Shown piece after piece: positions 1 through 64,000 of a stretch of DNA of 64,000 nucleotides. The notes under the pieces are model-generated. The model did not search any database. It was not told the DNA's origin and saw only the letters and a program-made list of their open reading frames with translations. Position 1 is the first letter of the stretch. Each line of letters opens with the position of its first letter. The DNA comes from a virus. The stretch covers positions 70,297 through 134,296 of the IMG/VR virus record IMGVR_UViG_3300016665_000824. The stretch is one strand, 5' to 3'. A program made the position numbers and the translations under genes.

Positions 1-297
1 CAAGCTTTCGCCGCAACATCTACCCTAGCGAATGTGGCTAGTAGTGCGACATCAGTTAGCTTGTTAGCTGCCAACAATAACCGCAAAACAGCAATCATTC
101 TAAATGATTCGACTTCAGATTTATACGTTACTCTCAACGCAAGCGCCGCCAGTACGACGAATTATTCATTATTTTTAGCCGCTAAAGTTGGTAACACGCC
201 ATCATTTTTAGCTATAAATGGTGATGATTATTCGGGCGAAATTCGTGGAATTTGGAGTAGTGCTAATGGTTTCGCAAGAATTACGGAGGTCGTGTAA
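1..297 (+). CDS. virion structural protein, C-terminal part (5' end lies outside the window); tail-fibre-like
   Basis: Reading frame is open from nt 1 (no stop before the GTG at 34); Ser/Thr/Ala/Asn-rich low-complexity sequence typical of fibre proteins; stop at 295-297 overlaps start of next gene. Confidence 0.35.
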   Translation, partial: QAFAATSTLANVASSATSVSLLAANNNRKTAIILNDSTSDLYVTLNASAASTTNYSLFLAAKVGNTPSFLAINGDDYSGEIRGIWSSANGFARITEVV

Positions 298-1202
298 TGA
301 TTATTGTTAATAATTCCACTAGTGCTGCTGGCATTGGGAAAAACTATTTTAAGAATCCCAATTTTCAAGTAATCCAAGGCACTGCATCAGGGACGCTCGC
401 CAATTCCACAGCATTACCCACAGCATCACTAGGATACCTAGGTGAGACTGAATGGGGTATTGCGGCGGCGGGTGGCACTCCTGCTTATGCTTTTAGCTCA
501 GCGAATGAATCTGTTACCTTTACGGGTGCAGCATCAACTACCGCTATTTATTTGCTTCAAAGACTTGAAAGCAGAGATATTACTACTCTAGCCAACAAAC
601 TGGCGACAATTACTTTTAGTGCTGAGATATCTAATTCGCTGCTTACTTCGGTAATTTGGGAAGTATTTCGCCCTACTACCACTGCTGACACTCATGGCAC
701 AATTGGCACACCTACGCAGACATTGATTGCTAGTGGAACGTTCACCGTAAACTCAACGCTGACAAAGTATAGCGCCACATTTACCCTTCCTGCATTAGCT
801 GCTAATGGACTGGAGGTAAGACTAAGAGTAGGGGCGCAAACTTCTGGAACTTGGGTGGTGTCAAGGTTGCAATTAGAAGAAGGTAGTGTTGCTACTAACT
901 TCATTTGTGATGATTATTTGACTGAATTGAATCAATGTCAAAGATACTTTAGAAGATTATCAGATTATCTATATGTTTATTTTGGTACTACTGGTGTATT
1001 AAATAGTGAACGAATGCATTTAAATATGTTTGGTACTACTAGAATTAGAAATTTAATAGCACAAAATTCAATAGGTGGAACTGGAGTTACTATATCAGCA
1101 GGACTTAATGAAGATTCAACTAGAGCTAATTATATAAATAATGCTGGAGCTGGTTACTATGGTGGCAATCCATTATATACAGTGTCAGCACACATCCCTT
1201 AA
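297..1202 (+). CDS. putative tail fibre / receptor-binding protein
   Basis: 301 aa, Gly/Ala/Ser/Thr-rich N-terminal part; C-terminal third (about nt 900-1200) is strongly AT-rich with different codon usage; ATG overlaps previous stop (TAATGA). Confidence 0.4.
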
Positions 1203-1219
1203 AAATACAAATAAAAACA

Positions 1220-1600
1220 ATGGAATTTACATATAAACTAATACAAAATCAACCAAACTCCATCATAAGACTTGAAGATGGAGCAATTATCCCAGAAGGG
1301 CATAATGGTGATTGGCAACTTTACGAGGCATGGTTAGCTGAAGGAAATACGCCTGAAGCCGCTGATGCGCTGCCTATTGTAGTGCGGGAAATCGATGCTC
1401 GTAAACTGCGATTAGCTTTGCTTCAATTAGGGCATCTATCTACCGTCACTAGCGCTATTTCTAGCCTTGGTGAGGCTGCAATCATTGATTGGGAATATGC
1501 CACAATCATTCGCGAAGATTACCCTTTGGTACTGGCTTTGGCAAGCAATTTAAATTTGGATATTAAAGCAATATTTGATTTAGCGAATTCATTGGTGTAA
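1220..1600 (+). CDS. hypothetical protein (positionally fibre-associated, possible assembly chaperone)
   Basis: 126-aa ORF directly downstream of fibre-like gene; no recognisable motif. Confidence 0.35.
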
Positions 1601-1602
1601 TT

Positions 1603-2148
1603 GTGGCAGGAGATCTAATCCCAATCTTAAAGAGCTATTTTGATTTTGCGGTGATCGCGCAAATATCGGACAATAGAGGTACGGTTGGGATACCTTCTCA
1701 ATCAAATCCCCCCGACAGCAGCATCAGCCAGATCAGCACTGCTGCTGTCGGTAGTGCTGTCGTTGTTACTGCTCTTTTTAAATTGTTTGAAAAATTTGGA
1801 ACAAATGTAATTGATGGGCAAAAAAGCAGGCTTAGCCTTGATTTAAAGGCTAAAGAGCTAGAGCTAGAATTTGAAAAGGCTGAAAAGTTGGCAGCCAGAA
1901 AAGAGGAAGAGCGCAAAACTGAACTAATCGAACAAATACTGAATAACGCACTGTCACACGTTTACAGCACAGCCAAAGAAAACAAAGAAATTTACCATGA
2001 ATTGCTTGAAAAATTCCAAAAAAGTAACGAAATTAACGAGAAAGCTTGGAGCAAAATAGAAGAACAAAGCCAAGAAATCCATTTGTTAAACCAAACTTTA
2101 AAAGATGTTTTAGCGACGCTAAGTTTGAAAGATCGTCAAAAAACCTAA
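1603..2148 (+). CDS. hypothetical membrane-anchored coiled-coil protein
   Basis: One hydrophobic segment (AAVGSAVVVTALFKLF) followed by Lys/Glu-rich coiled-coil region. Confidence 0.35.
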   Translation: MAGDLIPILKSYFDFAVIAQISDNRGTVGIPSQSNPPDSSISQISTAAVGSAVVVTALFKLFEKFGTNVIDGQKSRLSLDLKAKELELEFEKAEKLAARKEEERKTELIEQILNNALSHVYSTAKENKEIYHELLEKFQKSNEINEKAWSKIEEQSQEIHLLNQTLKDVLATLSLKDRQKT

Positions 2149-2214
2149 AACAAAAGCCCAACTCAAGCTATGGCAAGAATTGGGCGTAGGTTACGGACAG
2201 GGGTGGCTATGGGG

Positions 2215-2634
2215 TCAGGCCATTCCTACTTGATCTTGACCAGATAACGTAGCGATCGCCAACCACTCCGCTAGTCCATCGGCAAATCCTTTGTCACTGT
2301 ATTCGTCAAGGCTGTAGATAGAGTCGATGCGATCACGCACCTCTTCTAGCGTCAAACCTTCTTTTTGCCATTGTTTTAGCTTTCGCCCAATCACTTGATT
2401 GAACTTCTCGATTTGTGGCGCTAGATTTTCTCTCGCCAACTCAGAAATGCGATCGCGCAAATCATTCTCTTCGATTTCGGAGATCTCATCGTCAAACCGT
2501 TGCAGATATTCGGGATTTTCTTGAGCAATGCGAACGCGGAGTAGCTGTATCGCATCATCGAACAGGATGTCGATTTCGTTAGGTGCGATCGCGTCAGTCC
2601 TATAGCCAAGCTTTTCTAATACTTCGAGTTTCAT
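2215..2634 (-). CDS. hypothetical protein
   Basis: 139-aa ORF, last gene of minus-strand structural block; stop overlaps start of upstream gene. Confidence 0.4.
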   Translation of the reverse strand: MKLEVLEKLGYRTDAIAPNEIDILFDDAIQLLRVRIAQENPEYLQRFDDEISEIEENDLRDRISELARENLAPQIEKFNQVIGRKLKQWQKEGLTLEEVRDRIDSIYSLDEYSDKGFADGLAEWLAIATLSGQDQVGMA

Positions 2635-18806: not shown

Positions 18807-19170
18807 TTTTTAATCCGCAACGTAATTTTGTTGTGCTATTGTTGTAATCACCAAAGAAGCAAATGAGAGACCCACCTGCTAAAAATAAGCAAAAAATAAA
18901 AGAGCCAACCGCCAAGTCGCTCTTTCATTCTTTGAAAATGATTGTTTGTTTCACTTCAGTTTCGGTTGTTCCTTCCACCTCGTCGTTTACACGCCTTGGC
19001 TGTTTGTGTTCAACACGACACTAATTTCCTGAATACTCTAACACATGGCGATCGCTTTGTGAAGGGGAATTTACGGAATTGGTGAAAAAACTGGAAGACA
19101 AGTGGTTTCTTGGGAATCTCAAGAACGCTTTGGTTGTTTTTTACACTTTAGTTTCGTAGGAAATTTAGTT

Positions 19171-19701
19171 ATGCTCTCAAGCGAAGAATACATACGCGAC
19201 AGACAAGACTTCGGTTGCTGGGAAGCCCGTATATTTTACTCCCCAGAATTAGATGCCGTTGTTGCGGCAGGTTTTATGGATGGGTTGATCTTCAACAAGG
19301 AAGAACTCTTCCAGCTAGGCTCATTACTCCTTGATGCCTCAATTAACGTTTCGGGTAAAGACATCTGCCACCTCAATAATCGGACATCGGCGAGAGGTCG
19401 TTCTGACAAGGATTTTTGGCTACAGCGCAAGAATAGATCTGGACTCGTGTATCTAATCAAGGCGATCGGGACTAACTACTACAAAATTGGTAGAACAAAA
19501 GATATTGAGACTAGATTAGAGACCCTGCAAAAGTCATCTCCATTCGACCTCTCGCTGATTCTTGCCATAGAAACATCAGACTCTTTGGCTCTAGAGAGGT
19601 ACTTCCACGATAAGTACAATGATTGTCGAGTTAGGGGTGAGTGGTTTGAGCTAGATGAGTATGCGATCGCTGAATTTATGAGCTACGAGGAGGTCGCGTG
19701 A
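19171..19701 (+). CDS. T5orf172-domain protein (GIY-YIG-like nuclease fold)
   Basis: C-terminal GLVYLIKAIGTNYYKIGRTKDIETRLETLQ ... ERYFHDKY...GEWFEL matches the T5orf172 pattern; start set at first ATG (ORF track starts at GTG 19102). Confidence 0.55.
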   Translation: MLSSEEYIRDRQDFGCWEARIFYSPELDAVVAAGFMDGLIFNKEELFQLGSLLLDASINVSGKDICHLNNRTSARGRSDKDFWLQRKNRSGLVYLIKAIGTNYYKIGRTKDIETRLETLQKSSPFDLSLILAIETSDSLALERYFHDKYNDCRVRGEWFELDEYAIAEFMSYEEVA

Positions 19702-52188: not shown

Positions 52189-52241
52189 ACACAAGCAACC
52201 CGCCAAGCCTCTCTACGATGCTGAAACTGGCGGGTTGCTTG
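52189..52241. terminator. stem-loop between convergent genes
   Basis: cacaagcaacccgcc ... ggcgggttgcttgtg, ~14-bp stem with ~23-nt loop, followed by T-rich tgttgtg. Confidence 0.45.
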
Positions 52242-59033: not shown

Positions 59034-59575
59034 CGCAGATGTGGAATACCCTTCTTGAACAAGACCCAAGGTTCAAGATGGTAGTGGACTTAGCAACCCC
59101 ACGAGGTAATCGCAAAAATGTGATGCCCCTCACCCGCGAGAATGTTCGGATTGCCTTCGCCGCATTTAATGACGGTATTGCTGAGCAGTTAACCGACTTG
59201 GCGATCGCCTGTTTTAACCGTTCCCACTCTCCTCGATTCGTCACCACCGATGAAGGTGATGAATTTATTGAAACTAGCGAAGAAGAAATCTATTATCAAT
59301 GGGAGCCTGAAGCGGCTTTGAGGATCTGCAACCAACGCCTTGATGGGTTTCTAATTGAGATCAGCGATCGTGGCACTATTACCAAATTTAAGTACGAGCG
59401 ACCACCTTTCCTGTATCCTCACGGCTGGGCCTATCAACCAACCATGCCCGAAGTTCCCGACGATCCTGAATGCTGCACGTTATTTGATCGAAGAAGCCAT
59501 GCTCGTCGCCGTCGAAGATTTGGGAATGTCGGCGACAAGTATGACCTGCATGGTAAAGCGTGGAAGAAGGGTTAA
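58997..59575 (+). CDS. hypothetical protein
   Basis: 192-aa ORF. Confidence 0.35.
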   Translation: MDEEQQPEHRTITQMWNTLLEQDPRFKMVVDLATPRGNRKNVMPLTRENVRIAFAAFNDGIAEQLTDLAIACFNRSHSPRFVTTDEGDEFIETSEEEIYYQWEPEAALRICNQRLDGFLIEISDRGTITKFKYERPPFLYPHGWAYQPTMPEVPDDPECCTLFDRRSHARRRRRFGNVGDKYDLHGKAWKKG

Positions 59576-59823
59576 GGCAGTATCCTGTCCAGCAGGTAGA
59601 TAATTAAGTGCATAGCCTTAACATTCCTGTTCGCGCAGTATATCTTCAGGCGAGTATGCAGTGAAGCAGGTAGATCAACCGTGATCCGCACAGTCCGCTC
59701 CTTCTCCCCTTCCACGGGCAACCCATCCAAAATATTTCCCGCAGTATTGTTTGTGTTCAGATCGGAATTAGCCTTGATAAAATTCTGCTCAATTGTTTCG
59801 GTAAGAGGTATACGCTTAGACAC
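59572..59823 (-). CDS. ParG-like ribbon-helix-helix protein (candidate centromere-binding partner of ParA)
   Basis: C-terminal RITVDLPASLHTRLKIYCANRNVKAMHLIIYLLDRIL is RHH-like; immediately downstream of and overlapping parA. Confidence 0.45.
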   Translation of the reverse strand: MSKRIPLTETIEQNFIKANSDLNTNNTAGNILDGLPVEGEKERTVRITVDLPASLHTRLKIYCANRNVKAMHLIIYLLDRILP

Positions 59824-60448
59824 AGCTCAGCACCTCCTCAAATAAAGCTTCGTACTCTGCCGCCGAATCTTGGGCGGCTTTGCTGTTTAATCCCCAGACA
59901 GTTGTGCGTTGACCAGACGAGTCGGCGATCGCCTGTTTCTGGTGAATCACTGTTTCTAACAATGGGATAACCGATATGGCTTTTAAGGTGGCGATCGCCT
60001 CTTCCTTGAGCATGGTTCGAGGGACTGCGCGGTTTAAAAAGAATGCGGCTCTGGGTAAACCCCCTCGCACTGACTGAGCTTGCAGTATTAGCTTTACTGA
60101 GTCCATTGCCGAGTTGAGGTCTAACCTTGTTGGTTGACATGGAACAATTGCTAGATCAGTTCTTAGTAGGATTGCGCGAGTTACCTCCGACAAGTTGGCG
60201 GGACCATCGAGGATTAAGTAGTCGCTCTTTAGGGCTGGTATTTTGTCGAGAATGCTGTCGGAATCGGACATGATTGTATATGCGATCGGAGTGGCGATCG
60301 TGCCTGCCCATTTACTTGAAGATTGCTGACCATCGGCATCGACCAGGATTACGTCTTTATCGTGGCGGCGCAGATACTCTGCCAAGTGGACTGAAGTGGT
60401 GGACTTGCCACAACCACCTTTTTGATTGACCAACGAGATTACAGTCAT
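59816..60448 (-). CDS. parA: partition ATPase ParA (small, type Ib-like)
   Basis: Deviant Walker A NQKGGCGKST, 210 aa. Confidence 0.8.
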   Translation of the reverse strand: MTVISLVNQKGGCGKSTTSVHLAEYLRRHDKDVILVDADGQQSSSKWAGTIATPIAYTIMSDSDSILDKIPALKSDYLILDGPANLSEVTRAILLRTDLAIVPCQPTRLDLNSAMDSVKLILQAQSVRGGLPRAAFFLNRAVPRTMLKEEAIATLKAISVIPLLETVIHQKQAIADSSGQRTTVWGLNSKAAQDSAAEYEALFEEVLSCV

Positions 60449-60597
60449 AGTTATTCGTGGGAGTATTACCTCCGCGCATTAAACCATGATCGTTGCGATA
60501 CTGCAATCAGTAAGTACTGAAGGTGTCCGCGCAAACGTTATTTGTGATGCTGGAAGCTTTACTGGGAAAGGGTTTTAGAATGTCCTTGCAAATAAGA

Positions 60598-60798
60598 TTA
60601 GTTGACTGACCTTATTTTAAAATGCTTGCAATTCACTGGGCAGCGATCGCCTAACCAAGATGCTTCGGTATGGACGTGGAGATCGCTAGTTTTCCAGATT
60701 TGTGGGTTATAGCAATGGTCGGCGCAATCGGGGCTGTACGACTCCCACTTCGGATTAACCCCGTTCCAGTAACAGTCGAGTCGGGTTTCGGTGTGCAT
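60598..60798 (-). CDS. hypothetical Cys-rich protein
   Basis: 66-aa ORF. Confidence 0.3.
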   Translation of the reverse strand: MHTETRLDCYWNGVNPKWESYSPDCADHCYNPQIWKTSDLHVHTEASWLGDRCPVNCKHFKIRSVN

Positions 60799-60801
60799 GT
60801 C

Positions 60802-61050
60802 CTACCAGAACCAATTATCGTAGAAAGTTATAGTCAAGCAAAAAGCAAGTAGTTCAAGCCCAAACTGGATCTCTCCAGTATCGTCATAACAAAATATCCT
60901 AAGCCATGTCTCTGGATAGGAATGTGTGATTTGAAAATCTAGCTTAACCAACGGGATCTGACTAGGCTCAATCAGTATCCAAGCATTGTCCTGATATGGC
61001 AGCTCGTATGGATTGTTGTGGTCGTATTCAAATTTTTTGATTTTGAACAT
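60802..61050 (-). CDS. hypothetical protein
   Basis: 82-aa ORF. Confidence 0.3.
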   Translation of the reverse strand: MFKIKKFEYDHNNPYELPYQDNAWILIEPSQIPLVKLDFQITHSYPETWLRIFCYDDTGEIQFGLELLAFCLTITFYDNWFW

Positions 61051-61250
61051 AAATATTAAAAAGCGATCGCCAATAGGCTATGTGATTTTTACGATTCTAA
61101 ACTTGATATCTCGATATGTCCGACGCAAAGATGACAGCTCCACCTTGGCTTCTTTCTTGTCGTACTGATACTTATTTTGTCTAACCCATACGTTAGGCTG
61201 CTCAAACTTTGTTACTAACTTTTCAATTGCGTACATCGTTGTAACTGGTT

Positions 61251-61440
61251 TAAAAAGCGATCGCTATCCTGAAGAGAGGTGGATAGGCGATCGCAAAATG
61301 TACATCATGAAAAATCCTCTCCCCACAATCTTAACTTGGATTCGCATTAAAAAGCGATCGCTATCCTGAAGAGAGGTGGACAGGCGATCGCTAAAATGAT
61401 TATCTAACATGACCTCTCCCCACAATTTTAACTTGATTTT
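61251..61440. repeat. two tandem ~97-bp repeats, each with a pair of HIP1 sites
   Basis: taaaaagcgatcgctatcctgaagagaggtgga(t/c)aggcgatcgc ... cctctccccacaat(c/t)ttaacttg at 61251 and 61348; ORF-free region upstream of the par operon. Confidence 0.6.
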
Positions 61441-61594
61441 GTGGCAAAAAAATACCGACGTCCTGTGGAGTGGTGGACGACGGGCTATGTAATCTCGATG
61501 GTCTGGAAATATTCTACGCGGTTTTGTGGCGCTTTTATTATCGAATCCCGCATTTAATCGATAATAACGAGAAAATTATTCCTAGATATTATCA

Positions 61595-62068
61595 GTGCCA
61601 ATAACAACCACCATGACTCTCGACTACACCCTCGGATATCTCACGGCAACCTTTGACTCCAACGATTCCCACGGCAAGAGTAGCTCGCCCGAATATGCCG
61701 TGTGGAAATCAATGGTGAACCGATGTACCAATAAGTCGAATAACAACTACGTCAACTATGGCGGTAAGGGTGTCACGGTATCAAAGGAGTGGCGAGACTT
61801 CGAGCAGTTCTACAAGGACATGGGGAAGAAGCCTGCGGGGGCATCGCTGGATAGAATTGACCCGAAGAAGGGCTACAGCAAAGGTAATTGCCGATGGGCT
61901 GAAGCTGGCGATGCTGGCGCGAGGACAAACGATGTGTATATCAAGGTGGGCGGGAAGAAAAAACGGCTCAAGGATGTTGCTGCGGCGAAGGGGTTGAAGG
62001 AGGATACCCTGCGGAAGCGGGTTAATCGAGGGATGGACATGAAGACTGCGGTGACGAAGAAGGCGTAA
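61595..62068 (+). CDS. phage-family DNA-binding protein (HNH_3/AP2-like fold)
   Basis: YAVWKSMVNRC ... YGGKGVTVSKEW ... SLDRIDPKKGYSKGNCRWA motif common in phage genes; G-rich codon usage and no HIP1, unlike surroundings. Confidence 0.4.
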   Translation: MPITTTMTLDYTLGYLTATFDSNDSHGKSSSPEYAVWKSMVNRCTNKSNNNYVNYGGKGVTVSKEWRDFEQFYKDMGKKPAGASLDRIDPKKGYSKGNCRWAEAGDAGARTNDVYIKVGGKKKRLKDVAAAKGLKEDTLRKRVNRGMDMKTAVTKKA

Positions 62069-62892
62069 ATACGTTTTAAATCTCAAGAAAGCTCTCATTT
62101 GTTAACAGTAACTGGAAGATTTCTTTGTAAAAGACCTAATAAAAAAGACCTAGCTCGATCCGTGATCCAGAGATCCAAAATCTCCACGTCCAAAACAGTT
62201 AACTTTTTGAGTGATTCAGGGGGTTGCTATTGGGAATTTTCGCGCGTGTGCATAGAAATAGCAAATTTGACCGTCAAAAAAATAAGCTTTATAGTGTCAT
62301 CACTTAGCTGTGTGACAGGCATCTAAGTAAGGGCTTTACAGTTCTCTAGTCACTTATATATGGCTAGCAAGCGTAAACAAAGGAATAGTAAAGACAGCTA
62401 ACAAGCTGTTTGTAACTAGGGTAGAAATTCGGTTAAGTAGCTACGAAGAAACATAGCTACTTTGAACTTAAGAAAGAGTTTTTTGTTTGCGGGTTTTAAT
62501 GCCTCACTTGCAAGGTAGATAGGATGAACAAAGAGATTAAACAGTGAATTAACACGGTATAGGCTGTAACTAGTAGATAAAGCACTCTAAGCTCAAACAA
62601 CGATCGCACTAAGTTAAACGGTTACTTAGTAAAGCGATCGCACTCATTCCCATTGCTTACGAGATAGGCAAAAAGTGAGGGAATAAAGCGATCGGCGATC
62701 GGGTAGTTCGATCCCGTCATGGGTAAGGACTACAGCACTTAGGAATAGCTCTAAAGTAGCTAGGGTTAAGTGAGTTAGTAGCTATTTGCGAGTAATAGCT
62801 TAAGCGTAGGTACTAATCACTTCATACGCAAATTAGATCAAAGAGATAAACCGTTAAAACTATTCACACTATATTTTTTGAGGGTTAAAACC

Positions 62893-63405
62893 ATGTCTAA
62901 TCTTAATACTGAGTTTTCCGAATTGATTGCGATCGCTGATTTTCACGGTGTAAGCATTGATGAAGCAGTTGCGCTAAAAACTGCTAGCGAAAGCGCTAGT
63001 AAAAAGCTTACTCGTAATCTTTCTACAGCGATCGCTGATCGTCTTGTTGCGACAATCGAAAATGATTGGAGCGCTACTAACTCTAATTATCTTGATGTGC
63101 TAACTCGTAGAATGCAACGCGCTAACCGTAAAGAACGCTTAGCCGATCCTGTTGCAAAACTTGAAGCACCCGTTGAAGTAGTAGTTGAAGCACCCGTTGA
63201 GACTGAAAAAGTTACCGTTGAAGCACCCGTTGAAGTAGTAGTTGAAGCACCCGTTGAGACAGCTATCGACAGATCACCAACGCAGGCACGCCGCAAACGT
63301 GGCGCTACAGTTGCAACGGTTGAAGCACTCGCACCCGTTGAGACTGAAAAAGTTACCGTTGAAGCACCCGTTGCGAGAAAAACTAGATCACGTAGAGCTA
63401 AGTAA
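62893..63405 (+). CDS. protein with tandem EAPVE(V/T) peptide repeats
   Basis: ORF 62878..63405; start at ATG 62893; nucleotide tandem repeats at about 63166-63380 encode repeated EAPVEVVVEAPVETEKVTV units. Confidence 0.45.
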   Translation: MSNLNTEFSELIAIADFHGVSIDEAVALKTASESASKKLTRNLSTAIADRLVATIENDWSATNSNYLDVLTRRMQRANRKERLADPVAKLEAPVEVVVEAPVETEKVTVEAPVEVVVEAPVETAIDRSPTQARRKRGATVATVEALAPVETEKVTVEAPVARKTRSRRAK

Positions 63406-63414
63406 AGCTCTTAG

Positions 63415-63455
63415 CACCCCGATCGCTTATCCTATGGCGATCGGGGTGTTTTTTT
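63415..63455 (+). terminator. intrinsic terminator
   Basis: 12-bp stem caccccgatcgc / gcgatcggggtg, 10-nt loop, followed by T7. Confidence 0.75.
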
Positions 63456-63479
63456 GTTAGCCCCTACCCTATTAATCCA

Positions 63480-63980
63480 ATGAGAAACAAAGCAAAAGAA
63501 ATTAACTCTCTGAAGTCACAAGGCTTTACACTTCACACCGATCGCAAGTTTTCTAAACACCAGCTCCCCGATCGCTCTGATGTCTCTCTATCTCAAAACA
63601 GCAAAAAATCATCACACAATAAACCCGTCCATGCTAACGAAATTTCTACGGTAGTAGACAGCTTTAATACCTCCATAGGTCAGTTTGTGATCCTGCGATC
63701 AGGCAGGATCTCTTTCTATATCAAGGGGATATCTAGGGATGTAACAGTCATTATGTCATCTCTAAGAGATGAAGAAAGCGCTATTGCTGAATACAAAGGA
63801 TTGCCAATTACTCCTATACATATAGGAGGAAAACTTAGAATTAACCCTAGCAAGGTAGTAGAGCGTTACAACCACGCGATCGCTAGATGTCAAGAGTCAT
63901 ATTTCCTTTACTTAGCAAGTATAGGAAAACAAGTTAACCCAGAAAGGGAATTACTAAGATCTTTGATGAGATTAGGGTAA
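63480..63980 (+). CDS. hypothetical protein
   Basis: 166-aa ORF. Confidence 0.4.
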   Translation: MRNKAKEINSLKSQGFTLHTDRKFSKHQLPDRSDVSLSQNSKKSSHNKPVHANEISTVVDSFNTSIGQFVILRSGRISFYIKGISRDVTVIMSSLRDEESAIAEYKGLPITPIHIGGKLRINPSKVVERYNHAIARCQESYFLYLASIGKQVNPERELLRSLMRLG

Positions 63981-64000
63981 ACAAGGCAATAAAAAAAGCA

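What the first reader, a model, noticed from the sequence alone, without database searches (positions are those of the whole stretch)
61390..62877. Second HIP1-free patch: G-rich phage-type gene followed by an AT-rich 0.8-kb non-coding region
Gene 61595-62068 uses G-rich codons unlike its neighbours and lacks HIP1. The following 62069-62877 region has no ORF of 60 aa or more, is AT-rich and contains repeated AGTAGCTA/TAGCTACT octamers (for example near 62442, 62464, 62757, 62781). It may be a foreign insertion plus an origin-like or regulatory region.
Basis: seen in the sequence. Interest (0 to 1): 0.4.

Follow-up and report, generated by a model that had tools for sequence, protein, structure and literature searches.

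The report
Phage nuclease gene plus promoter-leader region
A small homing-endonuclease-type gene in a cyanobacterial phage genome is followed by a conserved promoter and a long, fast-evolving untranslated leader of a variable gene; this is an ordinary piece of phage gene organisation, and nothing marks it as a replication origin.

Summary
The window is part of a 134-kb cyanophage-like contig rich in the 8-base palindrome GCGATCGC (HIP1). It carries portal, DnaG, DnaB, beta-clamp and ParA genes. The flagged gene really starts at ATG 61613 and ends at 62068. It belongs to a widespread phage family labelled 'HNH endonuclease' (phrog_3377, E 2.6e-44). The usual catalytic His is Arg throughout the family, and the nearest solved structure is the Tyr-dependent HNH enzyme PacI, although that match is not significant. 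Its G-ending codon bias is real, the strongest of 75 ORFs. The gene sits at the same site with the same bias in four diverged lineages, so it is not a recent insertion. HIP1 depletion here is not significant, and one HIP1 lies inside the patch.

The 0.8-kb spacer has three parts:
- a decayed terminator;
- a roughly 200-bp conserved regulatory block ending in a sigma-70-type promoter, TTGACC-17-TATAGT at 62267-62295, kept in all four lineages;
- a lineage-specific, AT-rich, hairpin-rich leader of about 590 nt, which holds the AGTAGCTA octamers.

The leader runs to ATG 62893 of a tandem-repeat protein gene that ends at terminator 63413-63450. I found no origin features. Verdict: a new member of known kinds, of low interest.

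The parts
61219..61494 (-). About 2.7 tandem copies of a 97-bp unit. Each copy carries a HIP1-flanked hairpin followed by a U-run on the minus strand (hairpin plus tail at 61250-61294, 61346-61392 and 61445-61483). They look like terminators for leftward transcription, or could be operator or centromere sites. They sit upstream of the nuclease-like gene.
   Evidence: Tandem Repeats Finder gives period 97, 1.9-2.2 copies; repeat family D2. Minus-strand folds are -20, -20.9 and -13 kcal/mol with z -6.0, -4.8 and -2.9, each followed by a U-run. One to three such copies are also present in L035, L081, L005 and L083.
61613..62068 (+). Gene for a 151-aa protein with a PacI-like, HNH-superfamily core (LDRID...GYS..NCRW, with Arg where HNH enzymes have the catalytic His) and a C-terminal helix-turn-helix. 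It has G-ending codons and no HIP1.
   Evidence: phrog_3377 'HNH endonuclease' at E 2.6e-44; no Pfam or NCBIfam hit. AF2 model pLDDT 85. BFVD gives 108 viral matches at E<=1e-3. PacI is the top PDB hit by fold (E 0.88) and by profile (E 1.4). Orthologues at 87-93% aa identity occupy the same site in L005, L035 and L081.
62085..62125 (+). Decayed intrinsic terminator of the nuclease-like gene.
   Evidence: The orthologous hairpins fold at -34 kcal/mol (L081) and -30 kcal/mol (L005), with compensatory stem changes. In the window the fold is only -5.3 kcal/mol (z +0.85).
62131..62208 (+). Conserved operator-like motifs: AAGACCTA twice (62131, 62145), GATCC three times (62157, 62164, 62172) and the near-palindrome AAACAGTTAACTTTTT (62193-62208).
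   Evidence: Coordinates. AAAGACCT is kept in all four lineages: three copies in L081, and one direct plus one inverted in L035. The palindrome is kept only in the window and L005.
62242..62295 (+). Conserved promoter: an A/T-rich upstream block (GCGCGTGTGCATAGAAATAGCAAAT), -35 TTGACC (62267-62272), a 17-nt spacer and -10 TATAGT (62290-62295). The inferred transcription start is near 62302.
   Evidence: Scan match of 10 of 12. The same architecture is found independently at the orthologous site in L081 (TTGACG-17-TATAGT) and L035 (TTGACG-17-TATCGT), and is read from alignment A4 in L005 (TATCTT). In the 30 nt up to and including the first five bases of the -35 hexamer (62242-62271), 27 positions are invariant, while the 17-nt spacer varies in sequence but never in length.
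62296..62325 (+). Conserved initial transcribed region (TCACTTAG...GTGAC). Alignable homology to the relatives ends here.
   Evidence: Alignments A3 and A4. The blastn block between window and L081 ends at 62322.
62326..62878 (+). Lineage-specific AT-rich leader rich in TAG/TAA and in hairpins. It contains the AGTAGCTA/AGCTA motifs, one HIP1 (62634) and three HIP1-like sites.
   Evidence: No blastn or tblastx similarity to any relative. GC of the inferred transcribed stretch 62302-62892 is 0.387, and 0.34-0.36 in the relatives' leaders. The RNA fold of 62296-62895 has z -4.5 on both strands. Relatives give z -6.25 (L005), -3.5 (L081) and -0.95 (L035). AGCTA exceeds dinucleotide shuffles in 3 of 4 lineages. 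Inverted repeats are listed.
62879..63405 (+). Shine-Dalgarno GAGGG (62880-62884) and a gene for a 170-aa protein (ATG 62893) with tandem EAPVE-type peptide repeats. This is the first and only gene of the transcription unit.
   Evidence: ORF list and sequence; tandem DNA repeats at 63161-63257. The genes at this position in L035, L081 and L005 also encode tandem-repeat proteins but share no blastp similarity.
63413..63450 (+). Strong intrinsic terminator that closes the unit.
   Evidence: 15-bp stem, 9 G-C pairs and a T-run. It is 94.6% identical to L081 13918-13954. L035 has its own terminator at the same position.

Best explanation
The flagged stretch holds two ordinary phage features side by side.

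(1) Gene 61613-62068 is a free-standing homing-endonuclease-type gene. Its core is related to the HNH (His-Me finger) superfamily, with Arg where the catalytic His normally sits and conserved Asp, Tyr and Asn positions like those of PacI. A helix-turn-helix follows. It is an old, vertically kept resident of this phage clade, and its G-ending codon bias is maintained in every lineage.

(2) The 0.8-kb spacer is the control region and 5' untranslated leader of the next transcription unit.
- A decayed terminator comes first.
- A conserved roughly 200-bp block follows, with repeated short motifs that are probably binding sites for a regulator.
- The block ends in a host-type (sigma-70) promoter at 62267-62295.
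- Transcription is inferred to start near 62302. It would run through a roughly 590-nt AT-rich, hairpin-rich, non-coding leader to the ribosome-binding site and ATG 62893 of a tandem-repeat protein gene, and stop at terminator 63413-63450.

Between the conserved promoter and the terminator, the leader and gene differ completely between lineages. This is a hypervariable single-gene slot with conserved flanks.

Shown here: homology, composition, conservation pattern, motif and hairpin excess. Inferred: nuclease activity, promoter use, transcription start, and any role of the leader's hairpins, such as mRNA stability or control of translation.
For: Phage context:
- portal, DnaG, DnaB, beta clamp and ParA genes;
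- the window is identical to a 134,398-bp contig.

Gene family:
- phrog_3377 at E 2.6e-44;
- 108 BFVD structural matches, many named HNH or homing endonuclease or AP2 protein;
- invariant R37, C38, Y49, W60, F66, R81, Y88, N92 and W95;
- PacI is the top hit of two independent searches, with the local match VDRSDSFEGYSPQNARLA to LDRIDNKKGYSKGNCRWA;
- PacI uses Tyr instead of His, with Asp and Asn as metal ligands (PMC5714182, PMC4081073).

Old resident of the clade:
- same site in four lineages;
- dS 1.47 and dN/dS about 0.05;
- GC3 0.61-0.68 and no HIP1 in all four orthologues.

Regulatory block:
- 62130-62273 is 84% identical to L005, against 55% third-position identity in the gene;
- -35, -10 and the 17-nt spacing are kept in four lineages while the spacer sequence varies;
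- independent scan hits at the orthologous sites.

Leader and single-gene unit:
- homology stops at about 62325 and resumes at the terminator;
- terminators follow the first gene in three lineages;
- all four leaders are AT-rich (GC 0.34-0.39 against 0.46) and 3 of 4 fold better than shuffles.
Against: - There are no transcript data, so the promoter, transcription start and leader are inferred from sequence alone.
- The conserved block can also be read as a short ORF (FLRVCxExANLT is shared), and several variable positions fall on third codon positions.
- The excess of structure is equal on both strands in the window (z -4.54 and -4.61), so it does not show selection at the RNA level. L035's leader has no excess (z -0.95).
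- The link to PacI rests on matches that are not significant on their own (E 0.88 and 1.4).
- This protein lacks the N-terminal Cys4 motif present in most family members.
- Keeping 0.3-0.6 kb of non-coding DNA in a phage genome hints at a function that 'leader' does not fully explain.
Confidence: 0.6

Rival explanations
1. The AT-rich region is a replication origin. One version is a transcription-primed (R-loop) origin of the T4, T7 or ColE1 type, in which the conserved promoter feeds an AT-rich, structured non-coding stretch. Another is the plasmid-maintenance origin next to the partition genes.
For: - A conserved promoter is followed by 0.3-0.6 kb of AT-rich non-coding DNA in all four lineages.
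- Inverted repeats and short motifs are in excess.
- There are three GATC sites within 20 bp, in the GATCC repeats at 62157-62176.
- ParA and a ribbon-helix-helix gene lie 1.2-2.5 kb away.
Against: - No direct iterons of 12 nt or more.
- No DnaA-box-like site, even allowing one mismatch.
- The lowest-GC 100-bp windows are elsewhere.
- Cumulative GC and AT skew follow gene orientation, with no turn at 62 kb.
- The initiator-like gene and DnaB are at 19.7-22.7 kb.
- L005 keeps the region but lacks the partition genes at this locus.
- The sequence is not conserved between lineages.
Confidence: 0.1
2. The region encodes a stand-alone non-coding RNA rather than a mere leader. Candidates are a structured regulatory, antitermination or decoy RNA made from the conserved promoter.
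For: - Folding z-scores are -4.5 (window), -6.25 (L005) and -3.5 (L081).
- In L005 the plus strand folds better than the minus strand (-6.25 against -3.88).
- The promoter and the first roughly 30 transcribed bases are conserved.
- The non-coding part is about half of the predicted transcript.
Against: - No Rfam match, even at permissive thresholds, in the window or in the relatives.
- No alignable conservation, so covariation cannot be tested.
- No terminator between the promoter and the gene on the plus strand.
- Structure is equal on both strands in the window, and absent in L035.
Confidence: 0.1
3. The variable part has no function of its own. It would be drifting spacer DNA, left by repeated cassette exchange at a mosaic junction, that has become AT-rich and stop-rich because nothing constrains it.
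For: - No sequence conservation beyond about 62325.
- Length varies from about 315 to 590 nt.
- Dinucleotide composition explains most of the TAG/TAA excess.
- Other intergenic gaps of 140-560 nt exist just downstream.
- The adjacent genes are also AT-rich (GC3 0.28 and 0.37).
Against: - All four lineages keep a long spacer at the same place even though synonymous sites are saturated.
- Hairpin excess in 3 of 4 lineages, and AGCTA excess over dinucleotide shuffles in 3 of 4, are not expected from drift alone.
Confidence: 0.15
4. The conserved block 62190-62325 is a small protein-coding gene and not a promoter.
For: An open frame crosses the block in all four lineages, with the shared peptide FLRVC(I/T)E(I/K)ANLT. 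Several differences are synonymous in that frame (TGC/TGT, ATA/ATC, GTG/GTC, CTT/CTG).
Against: - There is no common start codon (TTG far upstream, ATG, TTG, TTG), and the N- and C-termini are unrelated.
- Upstream of the core, 6 of 7 differences between window and L005 change the amino acid (read).
- No ribosome-binding site is evident.
- The invariant positions are exactly TTGAC and TAT..T at 17-nt spacing.
Confidence: 0.05

Closest known systems
Free-standing phage homing-endonuclease genes of the HNH superfamily (PHROG 3377 and relatives; for example 'HTH homing endonuclease' of Alteromonas phage PT11-V22, Twort ORF076, and putative HNH endonucleases of Synechococcus phage ACG-2014f)
   Same: - Strong profile match (E 2.6e-44) and structural matches (TM up to 0.79).
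- Small stand-alone gene between unrelated phage genes, with a C-terminal helix-turn-helix.
- Relatives carry AP2 or HTH modules, as homing endonucleases do.
- A distant homologue sits between MazG and the Pol III alpha gene in another phage.
   Different: - No Pfam HNH model matches, and the catalytic His is Arg in the whole family.
- The N-terminal Cys4 ribbon of most members is missing here.
- No presence/absence polymorphism was found: the gene is fixed at one site in four lineages.
PacI restriction endonuclease (PDB 3LDY/3M7K; His-Me finger group 20 of Jablonska et al. 2017, PMC5714182)
   Same: - It is the top hit of both the fold search and the profile-against-PDB search.
- The segment (V/L)DR.D...GYS..N.R.A is shared, and the N-terminal CxxC...C..C region aligns with the family profile.
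- PacI also lacks the catalytic His and uses Tyr, with Asp and Asn binding the metal.
   Different: - The matches are not significant (E 0.88 and 1.4; TM 0.35).
- PacI is a bacterial restriction enzyme with two zinc sites and no C-terminal HTH.
- Which residues correspond is inferred from one short alignment.
Sigma-70-type phage or moron transcription units (promoter, single accessory gene, intrinsic terminator)
   Same: - TTGACC-17-TATAGT, with an A/T-rich upstream block.
- One gene, followed by a strong stem-loop with a T-run.
- The content of the slot differs between related phages while the flanks are conserved.
   Different: - The untranslated leader is unusually long (about 315-590 nt, roughly half of the transcript), AT-rich and hairpin-rich.
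- Its presence is conserved but its sequence is not.
Transcription-primed phage or plasmid origins (T4 oriF/oriG, the T7 primary origin, ColE1 RNA II). This comparison rests on my own knowledge.
   Same: A promoter is followed by an AT-rich or structured non-coding stretch.
   Different: No origin hallmark was found, and the replication genes are distant.

Membership tests
Canonical HNH endonuclease (Pfam HNH PF01844 / HNH_3 PF13392) | Match to a curated HNH domain model | tested here: not met
   No Pfam or NCBIfam family matches the protein. None of the 29 family members hits an HNH model, even at E<=1.
Canonical HNH endonuclease (Pfam HNH PF01844 / HNH_3 PF13392) | Catalytic histidine (general base) at the end of the first beta strand | tested here: not met
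   The corresponding position, in LDRID, is an invariant Arg (R81) in all 29 aligned members.
His-Me finger superfamily, PacI-like (group 20) | Beta-beta-alpha-metal core with Asp and Asn metal ligands, and a Tyr replacing the His | tested here: inconclusive
   The AF2 model has a beta hairpin at 77-81/93-97. D80, Y88 and N92 are conserved and align with PacI D92, Y100 and N104. However, Foldseek gives E 0.88 (TM 0.35) and the profile search gives E 1.4.
His-Me finger superfamily, PacI-like (group 20) | Structural Cys4 zinc motifs | tested here: not met
   Most family members have an N-terminal C.C...C.C ribbon. The window protein and its close orthologues lack it and keep only C38 and C93.
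PHROG 3377 (phage proteins annotated 'HNH endonuclease') | Significant full-length profile match | tested here: met
   E 2.6e-44, 152 bits, residues 23-156 of the 157-aa GTG-start translation used in that scan (about 17-150 of the 151-aa protein); phrog_8790, 374, 2081 and 953 also match.
Mobile free-standing homing endonuclease gene | Presence/absence polymorphism between otherwise collinear relatives (an empty target site) | tested here: not met
   The gene is present at the same site in all four lineages that have enough sequence. The only other lineage (L083) breaks off in a TnpB-like ORF. dS of 1.47 argues against recent transfer.
Mobile free-standing homing endonuclease gene | Site-specific cleavage of the allele that lacks the gene | not testable with these tools
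   This needs purified protein and target DNA.
Sigma-70-type bacterial promoter | -35 and -10 hexamers close to consensus at 16-18-nt spacing, kept in relatives | tested here: met
   TTGACC-17-TATAGT matches 10 of 12. L081 has TTGACG-17-TATAGT, L035 has TTGACG-17-TATCGT and L005 has TTGACG-17-TATCTT. The spacer sequence varies but its length is fixed.
Sigma-70-type bacterial promoter | Mapped transcription start | not testable with these tools
   No transcript data are available.
Replication origin (theta-type phage or plasmid ori) | Iterons or DnaA boxes, an AT-rich unwinding element, a skew switch, and an adjacent initiator gene | tested here: not met
   - No direct repeats of 12 nt or more apart from HIP1-related ones.
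- No DnaA-box hit with up to one mismatch in 60-64 kb.
- The lowest-GC 100-bp windows are elsewhere.
- No skew turn.
- The initiator and DnaB are at 19.7-22.7 kb.
Known RNA families (Rfam 15) and tRNA/tmRNA | Covariance-model or ARAGORN match | tested here: not met
   The only hit in 61200-63000 is a chance-level miRNA model at E 4.6. Nothing falls in the relatives' leaders. No tRNA or tmRNA was found.

The most novel reading that the evidence does not exclude
The conserved promoter and terminator could frame a hypervariable expression slot whose content is swapped between related roughly 135-140-kb cyanophage (or phage-plasmid) genomes. That content is a 0.3-0.6-kb AT-rich, hairpin-rich untranslated stretch plus a non-homologous tandem-repeat protein. 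In this reading the long structured stretch is itself the functional element, for example a regulatory or decoy RNA or an R-loop-forming replication or recombination site, and not a passive leader.
Probability: 0.12. Interest if true: 0.5.

Novelty: new member of a known kind. Interest (0 to 1): 0.2.

Why it matters
Mostly it helps annotation. The gene start is corrected to ATG 61613. A compositional outlier is explained as an old, selfish-type nuclease gene and not a fresh insertion. An 'origin-like' spacer is re-read as promoter plus leader.

Two modest points go beyond that:
- A large, uncurated phage protein family labelled 'HNH' has Arg in place of the catalytic His and resembles the Tyr-dependent enzyme PacI. 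It would be worth testing biochemically.
- This phage clade keeps a promoter-to-terminator slot whose long leader and repeat-protein gene are completely replaced between lineages. Rapidly evolving host-interaction or anti-defence genes often sit in loci of this kind.

Tried and rejected
- blastn of 60400-64000 against the GenBank phage and PLSDB plasmid collections gave no match.
- The downstream repeat protein in IMG/VR gave only low-complexity hits.
- A 16-mer from the conserved block in IMG/VR gave 15 loci, all chance matches with no blastn similarity.
- The 30-nt promoter core found only the L035 contig in IMG/VR and nothing in 185,579 reference genomes. The protein also found nothing in those genomes, so no prophage or host was identified.
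- A 28-nt leader hairpin in IMG/VR gave no match.
- A tRNA or attP-like reading of GTAGTTCGATCCCG (62703-62716): ARAGORN finds no tRNA and the T-arm pairing is poor. Dropped.
- Group I or II intron, riboswitch or known sRNA: no Rfam hits.
- Decayed gene remnants in the leader: tblastx and blastn (word size 7) against all fetched loci and the rest of the window found nothing.
- A shared motif as a general phage promoter: AGCTA, TAAGTGA and the promoter core cluster only here within 74 kb.
- Partition centromere: L005 keeps the region but has no partition genes at this locus.
- Recent horizontal transfer of the gene plus its 3' flank: rejected, because dS is 1.47.
- An empty-site allele, sought through homologues of the upstream 192-aa gene: the one candidate lineage (L083-L086) ends in a TnpB-like ORF.
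- The 18-nt imperfect inverted repeat that flanks the whole spacer (62073-62090 / 62874-62891) is low-complexity and within chance for this region.
Full report
CONTEXT

The window has 186 copies of GCGATCGC (HIP1) where about 1 is expected. It encodes the following:
- a phage portal (3257-4912);
- DnaG primase;
- a replication-initiator-like protein and DnaB (19.7-22.7 kb);
- a beta clamp;
- an M23/SLT peptidase;
- a small ParA with a ribbon-helix-helix partner (59572-60448, minus strand).

The window is 100% identical to part of a 134,398-bp metagenomic contig (ENA ERZ27292652 k141_20893), apart from one 57-bp tandem-repeat copy. It is therefore a large phage, or phage-plasmid, of a HIP1-rich cyanobacterium. 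It has no nucleotide match in the GenBank phage or PLSDB plasmid collections.

THE OBSERVATION

The gene is a true compositional outlier.
- GC3 is 0.67 and G3 is 0.39, the highest of 75 ORFs (z about 3.2).
- AAG outnumbers AAA 18 to 4. A sample of other genes in the window gives 61 to 95.

HIP1 depletion is not significant.
- The 1250-bp gap is the second largest, but about five such gaps are expected.
- One HIP1 (62634) and three near-HIP1 sites lie inside the 'HIP1-free' patch.

The spacer is AT-rich: GC 0.381, the 0.6th percentile of 809-bp windows.

The octamer is real and local.
- Four of its six copies in the window fall here, against 0.03 expected.
- Within 74 kb this is the only hot-spot for AGCTA and for AAGTGA/ACTTAG.
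- Most copies are arms of inverted repeats.

One ORF of 75 aa (TTG start, 62099-62326) does exist, but it is not conserved as a gene.

The gene starts at ATG 61613, as in all relatives. It does not start at GTG 61595.

THE GENE

It has no Pfam or NCBIfam match, but it matches phrog_3377 'HNH endonuclease' at E 2.6e-44, along with four related PHROGs.

An AlphaFold model built from 29 homologues reaches pLDDT 85. It matches 108 predicted viral structures at E<=1e-3. Many of these are annotated as HNH or homing endonucleases or AP2 proteins, in jumbo phages, Twort and Synechococcus phage ACG-2014f.

The family has these invariant residues: R37, C38, Y49, W60, F66, R81, Y88, N92 and W95. The core reads LDRID..GYS..NCRW. 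The His that defines HNH enzymes is Arg in every member, and no member hits a Pfam HNH model.

Two independent searches put the restriction enzyme PacI first:
- Foldseek against the PDB (E 0.88, TM 0.35);
- a family profile against PDB sequences (E 1.4), with the local match VDRSDSFEGYSPQNARLA to LDRIDNKKGYSKGNCRWA and alignment of the N-terminal Cys motif.

Neither match is significant alone. PacI is the known His-less member of the superfamily. It uses a tyrosine, with Asp and Asn holding the metal (PMC5714182, PMC4081073).

I therefore infer, without having shown it, a PacI-like nuclease core followed by a C-terminal helix-turn-helix. The window protein lacks the N-terminal zinc ribbon found in most relatives.

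IS IT A FOREIGN INSERTION?

Four lineages carry the gene at the same place:
- the window;
- L035, which is IMG/VR UViG_3300031951_000374 (93% aa identity);
- L080-82, including a 140,681-bp contig (91%);
- L005 (87%).

Between the window and L005, dS is 1.47 and dN/dS about 0.05. The neighbouring 192-aa gene is 71% identical in protein and saturated at synonymous sites.

All four orthologues keep GC3 0.61-0.68 and have no HIP1. More distant orthologues (63% aa) have GC3 0.49 and one HIP1 each.

So the gene is an old, selected resident with a maintained codon bias. No empty site was found. The one further lineage (L083-86) ends in a TnpB-like ORF directly after the HIP1 hairpin.

What does vary is the partition cassette together with three small minus-strand ORFs (59572-61240). 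This cassette lies between the 192-aa gene and the nuclease-like gene in the window and L035. L080-82 carries the partition genes at this site but not the small ORFs. L005 has none of it.

THE SPACER HAS THREE PARTS

(a) A terminator hairpin follows the stop codon. It is very stable in L081 (-34 kcal/mol) and L005 (-30 kcal/mol), with compensatory stem changes. It has decayed in the window (-5.3 kcal/mol) and in L035.

(b) A conserved block runs from about 62126 to 62325.
- After the terminator it is 84% identical between the window and L005. Third codon positions of the adjacent gene are only 55% identical, so the block is under constraint.
- It contains AAGACCTA twice (three copies in L081; one direct and one inverted in L035), GATCC three times, and a near-palindrome kept only in the window and L005.
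- It then carries a 30-nt stretch that is invariant at 27 positions, GCGCGTGTG(C/T)A(T/C)AGAAA(T/A)AGCAAATTTGAC (62242-62271; its last five bases, TTGAC, begin the -35 hexamer TTGACC at 62267-62272).
- Exactly 17 nt of variable sequence follow, and then TATAGT. The relatives have TATAGT, TATCGT and TATCTT.
- The promoter scan finds this site independently in the window, L081 and L035.
- About 30 further bases (TCACT..G.GAC) are conserved, and then all similarity stops.

(c) A lineage-specific stretch follows, running to the Shine-Dalgarno sequence (GAGGG, 62880) and ATG 62893.
- It shows no blastn or tblastx similarity to any relative or to the rest of the window.
- All four lineages have such a stretch, of about 315 to 590 nt.
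- GC is 0.34-0.39 against 0.46 for the background, and TAG and TAA are 2.5- to 3.8-fold enriched over the coding background.
- Three of the four fold significantly better than shuffles: z -4.5, -6.25 and -3.5, against -0.95 for L035.
- AGCTA exceeds dinucleotide shuffles in three of the four.
- In the window the structure excess is the same on both strands, so selection at the RNA level is not shown.

THE TRANSCRIPTION UNIT

Homology to L081 resumes at the strong terminator 63413-63450 (94.6% over 37 nt). L035 has its own terminator at the same relative position.

The gene between leader and terminator encodes a tandem-peptide-repeat protein in every lineage: EAPVE-type, TTVEAA, TPVIATPVAD or TAKNG. 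No pair shows blastp similarity.

The unit is therefore: conserved promoter, long leader, hypervariable repeat-protein gene, terminator. It is a single-gene slot with conserved flanks.

ORIGIN HYPOTHESIS

Nothing specific supports it.
- No iterons.
- No DnaA-box-like site, and no extreme AT-rich stretch.
- Cumulative skews simply follow gene orientation.
- The initiator and helicase module is 40 kb away.

A transcription-primed origin cannot be excluded from sequence alone. I give it about 0.1.

OTHER READINGS

A known RNA family or a tRNA is excluded.

The conserved block can be read as a short ORF (FLRVCxExANLT). However, it has no common start, its termini are unrelated and most upstream changes alter the amino acid. 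The invariant bases are exactly the promoter hexamers.

VERDICT

The compositional observations are largely right. 'HIP1-free' and 'no ORF of 60 aa or more' are not. It is unsupported on two points, the recent insertion and the origin.

This is a new member of known kinds and of low interest. A modest residual question remains: why does this clade keep a long, structured, sequence-hypervariable leader in front of a hypervariable repeat protein?

Noticed in passing
window 61219-61494 (also L035 5633-5870, L081 11625-11870): About 2.7 tandem copies of a 97-bp unit. Each carries a HIP1-flanked hairpin with a U-run on the minus strand, so they look like three leftward terminators in a row. They lie between the start of the leftward small-ORF and ParA operon and the rightward nuclease-like gene. 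The third copy keeps the hairpin with a different stem sequence. It is unclear which leftward transcript they would stop. They might instead be operator or centromere sites.
   Followed up: partly
window 61755-61784 (-); L081 12148-12177 (-): A promoter-like site (9 of 12) on the antisense strand inside the nuclease-like gene, at the same position in two lineages. Together with the three minus-strand terminators about 270-500 nt downstream, it could define an antisense RNA over the 5' end of the gene. It lies in conserved coding sequence and is within chance for the scan.
   Followed up: no
window 62893-63405; L035 7091-7804; L081 13131-13907; L005 11010-end: The first gene after the leader encodes, in each of four lineages, a different protein with short tandem peptide repeats (EAPVE-type, TTVEAA, TPVIATPVAD, TAKNG). 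No pair shows detectable similarity. The repeat copy number also differs by 57 bp between the window and the otherwise identical ENA contig. Several assemblies break in these repeats.
   Followed up: partly
window 59572-61240: A cassette of a ribbon-helix-helix gene, ParA and three small minus-strand ORFs lies between the 192-aa gene and the nuclease-like gene in the window and L035. L080-82 carries the RHH and ParA genes at this site but no small ORFs are called there. L005 has none of it and carries an unrelated 204-aa ORF elsewhere. This is an insertion/deletion difference in partition genes within the clade.
   Followed up: partly
window 60710-60798; L083 5623-5711: An 89-bp piece overlapping the start of the 66-aa minus-strand ORF is 91% identical to a lineage whose flanking genes are only 68% identical. 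In that lineage it sits directly next to the HIP1 hairpin, followed by a TnpB-like (IS200/IS605-type) ORF where the contig ends.
   Followed up: no
window 52199-52235 (+): The only Rfam match above the gathering score in the window is the abiF RNA motif (46.9 bits against a threshold of 37, E 1.7e-5). The neighbouring ORFs are on the opposite strand.
   Followed up: no
window 19102-19701 (+): A second, unrelated homing-endonuclease-like ORF (phrog_681 and phrog_18411) lies directly upstream of the replication-initiator-like gene and DnaB.
   Followed up: no
window 1-2250: Another stretch without HIP1: three plus-strand ORFs (297-2148) with GC3 0.25-0.36. It also holds the lowest-GC 100-bp windows of the whole window (about 880-1200).
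   Followed up: no
window 62491-62506 and 62879-62891: GGTTTTAATGCCTC, inside the leader, is nearly complementary to the ribosome-binding region GAGGGTTAAAACC. The two pair in the minimum-free-energy fold, so this is a possible long-range anti-Shine-Dalgarno pairing. I noticed it only after seeing the fold, and it is partly low-complexity.
   Followed up: no
L032 10502-20501 (beyond the window end): The contig continues with more than 25 small plus-strand ORFs that have no Pfam hits, mixed GC3 (0.36-0.68) and several further intergenic gaps of 140-560 nt. This part of the genome is loosely packed in general.
   Followed up: partly
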